A stretch of DNA of 63,077 bases, filler included, from Collodictyon triciliatum (Eukaryota), in assembly GCA_043381765.1 (NCBI GenBank). It is 7 parts of 7 records of this genome, joined end to end, with 100 filler letters (N's around TTAATTAATTAA, not from the genome) between each part and the next. Parts side by side here need not be neighbours in the genome. Positions count along the whole stretch, not along the records: positions 10,848 to 21,590 come from JBHJMP010002574.1; 6 more parts are not named here. One strand, written 5' to 3'. This document shows, in pieces, positions 12,829-15,681 of this stretch. Under the pieces are notes generated by a model. That model searched no databases, had not been told where the DNA came from, and saw only the letters and a program-made list of their open reading frames with translations. How positions within the stretch are numbered: position 1 is the stretch's first letter; every line of letters starts with the position of its first letter. The position numbers and the translations under genes are program-made.

Positions 12829-13011
12829 TCAACCATTTTGACATTTTTACAGACTAGAAGGATGATACTAATCTTTCGAATTGTAAACCTGGTTCGCTAG
12901 TATCCAAGGTCTCACCACTATTTTTTTCGCTATGACCGTGTAGTGGTGAAGGCTGCCATGAAATACCAACAACTTGTTTTTTTAAAGATAGGTGTATGCA
13001 TTTTTGAAGGA
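12829..13011 (-). ncRNA. Candidate Fanzor omegaRNA scaffold
   Basis: Lies immediately 3' of the Fanzor stop. Perfect 9-bp stem 12912-12920/12941-12949, 7-bp stem 12864-12870/12898-12904 with inner CGAA/TTCG, possible pseudoknot 12882-12887 with 12846-12851. Position matches established Fanzor/TnpB omegaRNA location; boundaries inferred. Confidence 0.55.
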
Positions 13012-14859
13012 TTAAAAAGATTTCTTGAGTATATTATTAGTGCTGTTAAAGTCCCTTGTCAAGAATACACTTTGTTTGCTTTCTGAGCGATGGCATTATT
13101 TACATACGAGACATCTATACACATTTTTTGAATTTCCTTGCAGTTTCATATATTCCAGTTCTTTTTCGCAGTTACAGCACATCTTGGAGGTTCTAAATTC
13201 ATATCCACGCTGACTGTTTCAAAACGTTTGGATAGTATTTTTTTCGTAATCCTCTTCCAATCGTTTCCATAAAATGTTTCATCAGACATTTTCTGCTCCA
13301 GTCCCCATACACCAGTACAACATCCTTGCCAAATGTCTTTTCGATTCAGTCCATAAGCAACTGCTCATTTCTTTTTGTATTAGCATAATGTCTCCATATC
13401 ATCTTTCGAAAAGTTACGTGTTTATAAAATCTGGAAAATTCTATCCGGTATCTTGATTTCATAGATACATATTTTCGAAAATAATCATAATCGACCGTAC
13501 ATGAATTATATTTACTCAGTTCTGTCTCTAAATCGATTAAGGATACTCTTGATATCTCAAACTGCTGATTCTCTTCAAAAGTCCTGAGACCAAAAGAAAC
13601 AGCACTTTATAAATCTTGCCATGAATATCGCTGAGTAATTGTGCTTTTTTTTTCTCGCGCAAGAGTATTTTGTGATTTTTAAGAGATTTGCTATCACGTC
13701 TTATTTGGTGTGCAGTGTAACGTAATTTCTTGCCTGTCTCATCCACCATGTAAACCAAATTAAACTTGCCTGCGTCCACTCCAACTATTTTTTTTGTCGC
13801 TAATGAAGATAACTGCTCTTCAGAAAGTTGGTGTATATAAAAATAATCTTGGGGTTTTGATTAAATTGGAATTTTGAATTTGAAATACTTTTCTTTTCAA
13901 ATAATAGTGACGCCACTAACTCGTCTGTTTGTATCATGTATATAAAATTGTAGTCTCTTTGATGAAAACACCTCTTCTTCATTTCAAAGAACTTATCCCA
14001 TAGTGTCTCTTTGCATCCTGATATACTCTTCAGTAATAATGGTTTTCCAGTTGATACTAATAGATCTATCAAAGTTGCAGTATCTAGAGTAATGCGACAT
14101 GGTATATTGGTAGTTCTTATAGAGATTGGTTGAAGCAGTTTGGTTCCAATGTTCTAAAAAATGCGATTCATGTAAATCAGACATGGCGTGTACTTACTTG
14201 GATTGGCTTTGACGTCATATTCGATACCTTTCAAAATATTGCTGGGAATGATACGATGCAAAGGCGTTATAGTCGATCTTTATATTGTTCCGGTATGTCG
14301 AGTTTCATGAAGATGGCTTCTTTTTTAACTTTCTTAACTCTGCCTTTTTAATAGCTTCCGTAACATTCTTGTCTTTAGGAAGTATTTGATTTATAAAGCA
14401 CAGGAAACTTTGACATAATGCTCCTTAATGTTATCATGATAAGCTGTTAACATTTGCTTCGCCAAGTACCATAATACATGAGACAGTCCAACCAATAGAA
14501 AGCGATCTTCTCGGGACAAAAGGAATCGAAAATCATATGGATAAAAATTTTTCATGTCATCTCTCATATCTGGATGTTTTAATACTTGCGGGTCTCTCTT
14601 GTGAAACTATTCCAACTGTCTTTAAAGCGCACAAAAAAACAAACATTTCATTGATTGTTGGGAGTTGTTGTTTCAATATGTAACATCTTGCAAACAGATA
14701 AGTGTTGGTAACCAAATTATGTCACAATAAACCCGTATCGTTGATTTTGTCATAGTCATCCGCATGCTTTATAATCGACTTTAGAGATGGTTTCCCATAT
14801 CAATAGTCCGGTTTTACATATTTTAGACTCTCAGACTCAAGACGTTTTCTTTTCTTCAT
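13012..14859 (-). pseudogene. Fanzor1-type (eukaryotic TnpB-like) RuvC nuclease, frameshifted, copy 1
   Basis: Fragments: MKKRKRLESE N-terminus, IQTDE, KIVGVDAGK (RuvC-I), FYKHVTFRKMIWR...FGKDVVLVYGDWS, VDxxFRTSKMCCNC with zinc-finger cysteines, TRDFNSTNNIL (RuvC-III). Multiple stops and frameshifts; no introns. Confidence 0.9.
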
Positions 14860-14905
14860 ATGAAAGTCTTTGGTTTACTTTTTCCTTTAGGAAACAACTG
14901 AGTTT

Positions 14906-14913
14906 TCAATTTT
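14906..14913 (-). promoter_or_regulatory. AAAATTGA motif upstream of the Fanzor ATG (Mimiviridae early-promoter-like)
   Basis: Exact AAAATTGA about 47 nt upstream of ATG 14859; TAAATTGA at the same spacing in copy 2 (61239-61246). The motif is common in AT-rich DNA, so this is tentative. Confidence 0.35.
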
Positions 14914-14943
14914 AATAAAAAGTCAGTCAATTAGTATCAATTT

Positions 14944-15050
14944 AATAAAATAAAATAAAATAAAATAAAATAAAATAAAATAAAATAAAATAAAATAAAA
15001 TAAAATAAAATAAAATAAAATAAAATAAAATAAAATAAAATAAAATAAAA
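14944..15050. repeat. (TAAAA)n microsatellite inside the Fanzor cassette
   Basis: Direct; the equivalent position in copy 2 is a short A-run (about 61361-61368). Confidence 0.95.
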
Positions 15051-15070
15051 CTGCATAAATCGATTGAGGT

Positions 15071-15266
15071 AAAATTAAGCATCAACCAAGACTCTCAAAA
15101 TGTGCACATTGTGGTAAACAAACACACAAAGCTTTTTTACAAGTGATTTGAGACAAAACGCTGAGAGCCGATTCGGCGAGTTCGAAATGACGGCCGTACA
15201 GCCATTGTGACTTAAAGCCAACGTATCGGCCCCAAACAACATGATTATCGCCGCAAGTGTGGATAG
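15071..15266 (+). pseudogene. Small CxxC...CxxC zinc-ribbon ORF remnant, copy 1
   Basis: KHQPRLSKCAHCGKQTHK...HDYRRKCG*; two small indels relative to copy 2. Confidence 0.5.
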
Positions 15267-15474
15267 TATGCTTTTTTTGAAATGCATGCTTGGTGGCAGG
15301 CTTATAGGGTGGGTTCTGTCAGGGCCAAGGCAAGACTTGTTTGTCATTTTTGAATTCTTAATGCGAAATAAGATTTACATAAATGGAATTTGAAATATAA
15401 ATTGATCACATGAATAGAATGAGATTATTAAGTATTTTTAACCCATATAATATCATACTAATCTTACTTTTACA

Positions 15475-15658
15475 TTATTCAGGTTGTTTCTTGGGTTCAT
15501 CAAAGCTCCTGCTTTCGTCAACCCAGATTTTATTTGATGGTTGTCTGTGCAAAATTGATTTTTTTGTATATGGGTACCCTTACGATGTATAAAAAGTGTT
15601 GTGCCTTGAAAGGGATAAAACCAAGTTCGTCGCAACCTTTGTAATGAAGTTTATCCAT
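15475..15658 (-). pseudogene. About 59-aa accessory ORF remnant, copy 1
   Basis: MDKLHYKGCDELGFIPFKAQHFLY...(frameshift)...QPSNKIWVDESRSFDEPKKQPE*; same ATG and stop as in copy 2. Confidence 0.5.
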
Positions 15659-15681
15659 TAACAGGCCGAATGAGACCGAAG

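What the first reader, a model, noticed from the sequence alone, without database searches (positions are those of the whole stretch)
12829..15681. Repeated transposase-free Fanzor1 cassette with conserved cargo (second copy at 59222-61992)
Seen: two colinear copies on different contigs (6 mismatches in one 100-nt RuvC-I stretch, visibly more elsewhere) with a roughly 600-codon intronless nuclease gene in an otherwise intron-dense genome. Homology continues about 800 bp upstream of the ATG and ends sharply at ATGAGACCGAAG. Known: GVD-x-G, YGDWS, VDEFRTS-CxxC..CxxC and RDxN motifs are typical of Fanzor1 RNA-guided nucleases, usually carried by Mariner, Helitron, IS4-like or giant-virus elements. 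Inference: this is a mobile family with a compact three-gene layout (Fanzor / Zn-ribbon / 59-aa ORF) and no own transposase, an arrangement I do not recognise. An intact parent could be a new programmable nuclease system.
Basis: partly seen in the sequence, partly recalled or inferred. Interest (0 to 1): 0.9.

Follow-up and report, generated by a model that had tools for sequence, protein, structure and literature searches.

The report
Two decayed Fanzor1 transposon gene copies
These are two old, broken copies of a known kind of eukaryotic RNA-guided nuclease gene (Fanzor1) left by a repeat family, so this is an ordinary relic and not a new working three-gene system.

Summary
The repeat is real. 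Two colinear minus-strand copies (about 12830-15681 and 59222-61992) lie on different contigs and are 82.6-87.7% identical. They derive from a Fanzor1 gene. The window's own 123-residue fragment profile matches only the three solved Fanzor1 proteins in the PDB (E 2.9e-4 to 0.013). The closest intact relative, P0008 (634 aa), matches SpuFz1 at E 9e-37.

Neither copy is a gene. Against P0008, copy 1 carries 8 frameshifts and 6 in-frame stops. Copy 2 carries at least 6 and 7, plus an assembly gap. One stop and about three frame breaks are shared. Differences between the copies are even across codon positions (p=0.56), so both descend from an already dead progenitor.

The "Zn-ribbon gene" is the frameshifted C-terminus of the same protein. 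All 11 small ORFs in copy 1 are broken in copy 2. No terminal inverted repeats, transposase trace or Rfam RNA were found.

Fanzor1 loci without a transposase are already in print (PMC3627910, PMC10432273). The nearest intact relatives sit beside a DDE_3 transposase inside 32-33-nt inverted repeats on giant-virus-like contigs. Low interest.

The parts
12830..15681 (-). Copy 1 of the repeat unit, about 2.85 kb. The right (5') end is exact at 15681. The left (3') end is uncertain by about 40 nt.
   Evidence: Alignment to copy 2. Metagenome contigs cover from about 12870-12890 rightwards, and bins 12693-12791 are bare. The clipped 'loose ends' at 12871 still resemble 12841-12870.
13015..14859 (-). 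Copy 1 Fanzor1 pseudogene, corresponding to residues 1-593 of the 634-aa relative P0008. It has 8 frameshifts and 6 in-frame stops.
   Evidence: Frameshift-tolerant alignment, tblastn, three-frame translation.
13346..13348 (-). In-frame TGA shared with copy 2 (59586-59588). A third family copy, P0007, has Arg here, so the change was probably CGA to TGA.
14860..15669 (-). Conserved non-coding upstream region, about 800 nt. It has no conserved ORF, no transposase trace and no Rfam match.
14944..15050 (.). (AATAA)n microsatellite present in copy 1 only. Copy 2 has unrelated sequence here, including a 47-nt dispersed repeat.
15679..16121 (.). A/G-rich microsatellite directly abutting the 5' end of copy 1.
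59222..61992 (-). Copy 2 of the repeat unit. Its 3' part is cut by the contig start at 59222.
59233..61192 (-). Copy 2 Fanzor1 pseudogene, with at least 6 frameshifts and 7 in-frame stops. The RuvC-III Asp is replaced (RRNFN).
59227..59469 (-). It is the frameshifted C-terminal RuvC-II / zinc-finger / RuvC-III piece of the same Fanzor1 reading frame.
   Evidence: It aligns to P0008 residues 515-601. It gives a weak Cas12f1-like_TNB match, E 0.0047, below the Pfam cut-off.
60040..60128 (.). Assembly gap (N run) inside copy 2, just upstream of RuvC-I.
62006..62186 (.). A/G-rich microsatellite abutting the 5' end of copy 2.

Best explanation
The two stretches are old, neutrally decaying copies of one dispersed repeat family. 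The family was built around a single Fanzor1 gene, a eukaryotic TnpB-like RNA-guided RuvC nuclease. The unit is about 2.85 kb. It consists of an approximately 800-nt non-coding leader, a coding remnant of about 610 codons, and a tail of about 150-190 nt. It has no terminal inverted repeats and no transposase of its own.

Both copies descend from a progenitor that was already disabled, so they were multiplied as dead DNA. This happened either in trans by some other element's machinery or by duplication. They now do nothing.

Inferred from the family and not shown here: the ancestral working form would have made an omegaRNA from its 3' end and cut DNA next to a TAM to favour retention or spread of its element. 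Such loci, including ones lacking both a transposase and inverted repeats, have been described before.
For: Fanzor1 identity:
- A profile of the window's two central fragments finds 1181 proteins at E<=1e-3 and 270 at E<=1e-10. Many are 600-900 aa with the match near residues 420-520.
- The same profile against the PDB hits only 3 sequences, all Fanzor1: Parasitella 2.9e-4, SpuFz1 7.4e-4, Guillardia 0.013.
- The best intact hit, P0008, matches SpuFz1 over residues 14-607 at E 9.2e-37.
- 4 of 8 relatives scanned match Pfam Cas12f1-like_TNB at E<=0.01, one of them above the cut-off.

Both copies are dead:
- Copy 1 has 8 frameshifts and 6 stops. Copy 2 has at least 6 and 7.

Both were dead before they split:
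- They share a TGA at 13346 / 59586.
- They share net frame breaks near 13640-13655, 14324 and 14592-14640.
- Differences by codon position are 87/606, 74/604 and 80/603, chi-square p=0.56. There are 148 non-synonymous against 39 synonymous codon differences.

It is a family and not a single duplication:
- P0007 and P0011 (NCBI-sourced, on contigs of 513 and 629 nt) are further degenerate copies, 64-85% identical.
- In run X1, 171 contigs were laid on 12000-14940. Of these, 140 are under 95% alike. Up to 11 distinct contigs cover one site. Bins from 12891 rightwards are covered while most bins left of 12792 are bare or near it.

No own machinery:
- tblastn with the relatives' DDE_3 transposases gives a best E of 1.0-1.4 across the whole window.
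- No terminal inverted repeats were found.

Already described:
- Bao & Jurka 2013, sections 8, 9 and 12 read.
- Saito 2023, passages read.
Against: - Some shared frame breaks sit in A-runs, where assembly homopolymer errors could mimic them. Their positions come from a guide protein only 30-50% identical and are good to about 10 codons.
- CGA to TGA is a recurrent change and could have arisen twice.
- Single short fragments gave little. Only 1 of 9 fragments had a Pfam hit, and it was below the cut-off. The 80-aa C-terminal piece found no Fanzor in the PDB; its 13 hits at E 0.69-1.5 were unrelated proteins, mostly ribosomal eL20.
- Two word-index searches found nothing.
- The element's 3' end and the flanks of other copies were not seen. 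Copy number in the source genome is unknown, because no genome is held.
- Summed metagenome depth is not a copy number and may include related organisms.
Confidence: 0.85

Rival explanations
1. A plain segmental duplication of one dead Fanzor1 insertion together with its neighbouring microsatellite, and not a mobile family.
For: - Both copies share lesions and neutral divergence.
- Both abut the same kind of A/G-rich microsatellite at exactly the same base.
- No TIR or TSD could be defined.
- Only two copies are in the window.
Against: - No homology continues beyond the microsatellite.
- Additional diverged copies exist: P0007 and P0011.
- Many distinct 80-95% contigs cover the element while the left flank is nearly bare in X1 and X2.
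Confidence: 0.08
2. One reading: a living or recently living mobile cassette of three genes (Fanzor, Zn-ribbon protein, 59-aa protein) forming a new kind of programmable nuclease system.
For: - The unit is conserved end to end, including 800 nt upstream.
- A related fragment, P0006, is open over 209 aa on a 767-nt metagenome contig.
Against: - The Zn-ribbon ORF is residues 515-601 of the same protein.
- All 11 small ORFs are broken in the other copy.
- Both copies carry 13 or more disabling lesions.
- There is no selection signal.
Confidence: 0.03
3. The family is a non-autonomous Helitron2-type element carrying Fanzor1 (like Chlamydomonas CRe-1/2/3), mobilised in trans by a RepHel protein encoded elsewhere.
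For: - The 5' end follows a T-rich run on the gene strand in both copies.
- The presumed 3' end reads ...CTAG followed by T.
- Two small hairpins lie just upstream of that end.
- A 7-nt inverted match (GGTCTCA / TGAGACC) links the 5' end to a site about 50 nt from the 3' end (read).
- Helitron2 features as given in Bao & Jurka section 9.
Against: - The 7-nt match scores below the mean of shuffled controls (best real score 17, shuffle mean 16, maximum 27).
- The 3' end is defined by only one window copy plus clipped metagenome contigs.
- The 3' region folds no better than shuffles (z -0.46).
- No RepHel gene was looked for or seen.
Confidence: 0.15
4. The copies are remnants of a Tc1/mariner-type element, or of a giant-virus insertion, like their nearest intact relatives.
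For: - In 6 of 10 metagenome loci the relative's Fanzor1 lies head-to-head with a DDE_3/HTH_28 transposase; 32-33-nt inverted repeats bounding the pair were checked and found in 3 of these loci (L001, L003, L006).
- The neighbouring genes are an mRNA capping enzyme, SNF2, HSP70 and RNR small chain.
- One contig is listed in IMG/VR as a GVMAG.
Against: - There is no DDE_3 trace in the window (best E 1.0).
- The relatives' inverted repeat is absent from both copies (scores 15-16).
- The relatives are only about 30-57% identical in protein.
Confidence: 0.05

Closest known systems
Fanzor1 (eukaryotic TnpB-like RNA-guided nuclease; solved examples SpuFz1 8gkh, Parasitella Fz1 9cf0, Guillardia Fz1 9cer)
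   Same: - It has the same RuvC-I D, RuvC-II E-x-x-TS, C4 zinc finger and RuvC-III RD order.
- It has the same roughly 600-aa length.
- Similarity to the solved proteins is significant, directly and through the intact relative P0008.
   Different: - Both window copies are pseudogenes.
- Copy 2 has lost the RuvC-III Asp.
- No omegaRNA could be shown.
Fanzor1-only 'non-autonomous' families of Bao & Jurka 2013, especially CMe-1A of Cyanidioschyzon merolae (about 3 kb, about 150 copies about 80% identical to the consensus, no TIRs, TSD undetermined) and the Helitron2-type CRe-1/2/3
   Same: - A single Fanzor1 gene and no transposase.
- About 3 kb long.
- An old, diverged family.
- No TIRs (sections read).
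   Different: - Some CMe-1A copies keep intact ORFs. The two copies seen here do not.
- The superfamily of this element is undetermined.
Tc1/mariner-type DDE_3 + Fanzor1 elements on giant-virus contigs (loci L001, L002, L003, L005, L006, L010; compare the Mariner-Fanzor1 viral elements in Bao & Jurka)
   Same: They carry the nearest intact homologues of the window's gene (P0008/P0156 and relatives).
   Different: - Those elements are about 3.3 kb with 32-33-nt inverted repeats and an intact transposase.
- The window copies have neither.

Membership tests
Fanzor1 | Significant sequence similarity to experimentally characterised Fanzor1 proteins | tested here: met
   The window fragment profile A1 against the PDB gives only 3 hits, all Fanzor1 (2.9e-4, 7.4e-4, 0.013). 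The intact relative P0008 matches SpuFz1 at E 9.2e-37 over nearly its full length.
Fanzor1 | Motif D-X(125,275)-[TS]-[TS]-X-X-[C4 zinc finger]-X(5,50)-RD (Bao & Jurka abstract) | tested here: met
   Copy 1 has GVDAG, then about 160 residues, then RTSKMCCNC...RCLVC, then TRD. Copy 2 has the same order but ends RRN in place of RD. The motif can be read only across frameshifts.
Fanzor1 | Intact open reading frame encoding the nuclease | tested here: not met
   8 frameshifts and 6 stops in copy 1. At least 6 frameshifts, 7 stops and an N gap in copy 2.
Fanzor1 | omegaRNA encoded at the 3' end of the locus | tested here: inconclusive
   No Rfam match (best E 0.27, unrelated family). The 3' region folds no better than shuffles (z -0.46). 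No RNA run was listed as a holder. Only one window copy keeps this region, so covariation could not be tested.
Tc1/mariner (DDE_3) Fanzor1 carrier | DDE_3 transposase and terminal inverted repeats | tested here: not met
   tblastn best E is 1.0-1.4. No TIRs were found. The relatives' TIR is absent.
Helitron2 non-autonomous Fanzor1 carrier | 5' T after a T-rich target, 5' and 3' hairpins, asymmetric terminal inverted repeats (Bao & Jurka section 9) | tested here: inconclusive
   A T-run lies before the 5' end, and a CTAG-T with hairpins lies at the presumed 3' end. The only inverted match is 7 nt, which is below the shuffled background.

The most novel reading that the evidence does not exclude
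This decayed family marks a Fanzor1 lineage that lacks both inverted repeats and a transposase, and that still has intact, expressed members elsewhere in the source genome or in its freshwater relatives. The fragment P0006, open over 209 aa, and the many 90-99% contigs in runs X1 and X2 hint at this. Such a lineage might be carried by a Helitron2-like vehicle that targets T-rich microsatellites. An intact member would be one more programmable eukaryotic nuclease from a lineage only about 30-50% identical to characterised ones.
Probability: 0.15. Interest if true: 0.35.

Novelty: new member of a known kind. Interest (0 to 1): 0.12.

Why it matters
It matters little. The result adds one more decayed Fanzor1 repeat family to a long list. 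It shows that the apparent three-gene cassette is a broken single gene. It confirms that Fanzor1 relics without a transposase or inverted repeats are common.

The useful by-product concerns the nearest intact relatives. They form compact DDE_3-plus-Fanzor1 elements of about 3.3 kb with 32-33-nt inverted repeats on giant-virus-like contigs. That agrees with the published idea that large viruses spread Fanzors.

Only the discovery of an intact copy of this particular lineage would give it practical value as a nuclease.

Tried and rejected
- Whole-genome search: no genome is held for this window.
- Pfam on 9 single open fragments: 8 had no hit and 1 had a sub-threshold TNB hit.
- PDB search with the 80-aa C-terminal piece: only unrelated weak hits.
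- Word-index protein search, 'longer' proteins, with the 80-aa and the 123-aa fragments: nothing. This is weak evidence only, since HMMER found 1181 relatives.
- A wrong-frame translation was discarded.
- Rfam: no credible family.
- TIR search: none found.
- RNA fold of the 3' region: not distinctive.
- Sequencing-run search: no RNA holder was listed, and only small DNA shares (0.06-0.11) in four metagenome studies.
- Raw-read run X5: 0 reads laid, so it is no test.
As a result the 5' end and the upstream region were never laid.
- Retrocopy idea (the poly-A in copy 2 at 59240-59260): rejected, because the A-run lies inside sequence that still aligns loosely with copy 1.
- Alternative genetic code (TGA as sense) for the shared TGA: rejected, because TAA and TAG stops and frameshifts abound.
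- Earlier-findings look-ups: nothing.
- Supplements of the Fanzor papers (element lists) could not be seen. They might already list this family.
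Full report
**What is in the sequence**

The window is not one molecule. It is seven contigs joined by N44-TTAATTAATTAA-N44 spacers. Copy 1 of the reported repeat lies on contig 10848-21590. Copy 2 lies on contig 59222-63077, which begins inside the repeat and also holds an internal N gap at 60040-60128.

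blastn gives three colinear blocks:
- 13024-13795 vs 59269-60034, 87.7% identical.
- 13799-14931 vs 60132-61264, 84.5% identical.
- 15041-15850 vs 61360-62182, 82.6% identical. The last part of this block is microsatellite.

A global alignment and a sliding identity profile show fairly even conservation of 80-94% across the unit.

The right-hand end is sharp. ATGAGACCGAAG occurs exactly twice in the window, at 15670 and 61981. Each time it is followed by an A/G-rich microsatellite. Nothing beyond the microsatellites is homologous. The ATG of the coding remnant is at 14859 in copy 1 and 61192 in copy 2, so about 800-820 nt of upstream homology is confirmed.

**The gene is a Fanzor1 gene, but a dead one**

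Open frames in both copies are short, at most 80-90 codons. Three-frame translation shows the recognisable peptides scattered over all three frames.

Single fragments are poor queries:
- 1 of 9 fragments gave a Pfam hit. It was Cas12f1-like_TNB, E 0.0047, below the cut-off.
- The 80-aa C-terminal piece found nothing relevant in the PDB.
- Two word-index searches found nothing.

A profile of the central fragment from both copies did much better. I read the fragments with their one shared stop as X and aligned them as A1.
- The profile found 1181 proteins at E<=1e-3 and 270 at E<=1e-10. Many are 600-900 aa with the match around residues 420-520.
- The same profile against the PDB hits three sequences only, all Fanzor1: Parasitella 2.9e-4, Spizellomyces SpuFz1 7.4e-4, Guillardia 0.013.
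- The best intact hit, P0008 (634 aa), matches SpuFz1 over residues 14-607 at E 9.2e-37. It also matches the other two Fanzor1 structures.
- 4 of 8 relatives scanned match the TNB domain at E<=0.01, one of them above the cut-off.

The family assignment stands.

A frameshift-tolerant alignment to P0008 (tblastn) counts the lesions:
- Copy 1 has 8 frameshifts and 6 in-frame stops.
- Copy 2 has at least 6 frameshifts and 7 stops, plus the N gap.
- Copy 2 has also lost the RuvC-III aspartate (RRNFN where copy 1 has TRDFN).

The "Zn-ribbon gene" 59227-59469(-) aligns to P0008 residues 515-601. It is therefore the C-terminal RuvC-II / zinc-finger / RuvC-III piece of the same protein, separated from the rest by a frameshift. 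I also took all 11 ATG-ORFs of at least 45 codons in copy 1's unit, on both strands. All 11 are disrupted in copy 2 by non-3n indels or stops. There is no three-gene layout.

**Both copies come from an already dead progenitor**

The TGA in ...LLMD*IEKTFG... is at the same codon in both copies (13346-13348 and 59586-59588). A third family member, P0007, has Arg there, so the change was probably CGA to TGA.

The two copies also need the same net frame change at three places:
- The A-run near 13640-13655 / 59880-59895.
- Near 14324 / 60656.
- Between about 14592 and 14640 / 60895-60960.

At each of these the indels that distinguish the copies cancel to multiples of three.

Differences between the copies are spread evenly over codon positions: 87/606, 74/604 and 80/603, chi-square p=0.56. 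There are 148 non-synonymous against 39 synonymous codon differences. That is what neutral drift gives.

Three caveats apply:
- The shared frame breaks sit partly in homopolymers, where assembly errors are possible.
- Their positions rest on a guide protein only 30-50% identical.
- CGA to TGA can recur.

The private stops do not depend on any of this.

**It is a family and not only a duplication**

- P0007 (84 aa) and P0011 (74 aa) are NCBI-sourced ORFs on contigs of 513 and 629 nt. They are 64-85% identical to the window copies. P0007 runs into the out-of-frame reading seen in copy 2, so it is itself frameshifted.
- I laid Logan contigs of four runs on 12000-14940 at 80% likeness or more. This placed 171 contigs from X1 (6 at 99% or more, 25 at 95-99%, 71 at 90-95%, 69 below 90%) and 70 from X2.
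- Bins from 12891 rightwards are covered, while most bins left of 12792 are bare or near it.
- Up to 11 distinct contigs cover one site.
- Run X4 matched the unique flank 12180-12497 perfectly. X5 laid no reads, so it is no test.
- The clipped ends at 12871 still resemble 12841-12870.

These data argue for many diverged copies. However, summed depth is not a copy number and may include related organisms.

**No machinery of its own**

- No terminal inverted repeats were found.
- The best end-to-end inverted match scores 17, against a shuffle mean of 16 and a maximum of 27.
- No Rfam family matched.
- The 3' 281 nt fold no better than shuffles (z -0.46).
- No RNA holder was listed.

**Relatives give the context**

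The P0008/P0156 family was found at 10 metagenome loci.
- In 6 of the 10 (L001, L002, L003, L005, L006, L010) the Fanzor1 gene lies head-to-head with a 343-346-aa DDE_3/HTH_28 transposase.
- In the 3 loci scanned for inverted repeats (L001, L003, L006) the pair is bounded by 32-33-nt inverted repeats, giving an element of about 3.3 kb.
- The neighbours on the long contigs are an mRNA capping enzyme, SNF2 helicases, HSP70 and the ribonucleotide reductase small chain.
- The 254,533-nt contig appears in IMG/VR under a giant-virus MAG name.
- In the other 4 loci no transposase was seen among the neighbours scanned. L004 offers only 700 nt upstream.
- tblastn with these transposases finds nothing in the window (best E 1.0-1.4). 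The relatives' inverted repeat is absent from both copies.

**Comparison with what is known**

Bao & Jurka 2013 (PMC3627910; abstract and sections 5, 8, 9 and 12 read) already describe Fanzor1-only elements:
- CRe-1/2/3, which are Helitron2-type.
- CMe-1A, which is about 3 kb, has about 150 copies about 80% identical to the consensus, has no TIRs, and has an unknown class.

Saito et al. 2023 (PMC10432273; passages read) state two relevant things. No transposase lies within the Spu-1 inverted repeats. The GtFz1, NlovFz2 and MmeFz2 loci lack inverted repeats and any transposase association.

A Fanzor1 unit without a transposase is thus the usual case and not a new arrangement. A Helitron2-like vehicle is a lead, but it is statistically unsupported. 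The supporting observations are the T-run before the 5' end, the CTAG-T at the presumed 3' end, the small hairpins, and a 7-nt inverted match.

**Verdict**

The Fanzor1 call is right. The "intact 600-codon gene", the "three-gene layout" and the novelty of the arrangement are not supported.

The most likely account, at about 0.85, is two neutral relics of an old non-autonomous Fanzor1 repeat family that was copied from an already dead progenitor. Whether an intact member survives in the source genome could not be tested, because no genome is held.

Noticed in passing
window 1-63077: The window is seven separate contigs joined by N44-TTAATTAATTAA-N44 spacers, at 10748-10847, 21591-21690, 32428-32527, 43257-43356, 54081-54180 and 59122-59221. 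Two internal assembly gaps lie at 51307-51561 and 60040-60128. Several contig ends fall in A/G-rich microsatellites (10848-11084, 62989-63077).
   Followed up: partly
window 687-2969 (-): An uninterrupted 760-codon frame with tandem repeat units (about 135-nt period, about 80% identical, 1239-2146) and a long acidic D/E tail. By eye the units look like WD40-type repeats; this was not scanned.
   Followed up: no
window 56360-56406, 57695-57741, 61305-61350: A 47-nt dispersed repeat (91-100% identical) with three copies. One copy sits inside copy 2's upstream region, where copy 1 has the (AATAA)n array instead.
   Followed up: no
window 48309-50453 (+): An uninterrupted 714-codon frame of unknown identity. 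Together with the 760-codon frame it shows that long frames without introns are not unique to the Fanzor remnant in this window.
   Followed up: no
L005 1019-3838 and 6607-9864: One 10-kb metagenome contig carries two head-to-head DDE_3 transposase + Fanzor-like pairs. The second transposase is only about 35% identical to the first. Its partner is a 573-aa protein with a TNB domain (E 2.2e-9).
   Followed up: partly
L003 8637-11952; L006 8630-11952; L001 174-3503: Intact elements of about 3.3 kb with 32-33-nt terminal inverted repeats, a DDE_3 transposase and a 634-aa Fanzor1. They lie on giant-virus-like contigs. The Fanzor1 stop codon lies only about 15 nt from the right inverted repeat.
   Followed up: partly
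window 12180-12497: The unique flank left of copy 1 is matched without differences by contigs of a lake-water metagenome run (X4). The source organism or a very close relative therefore occurs in such samples.
   Followed up: no
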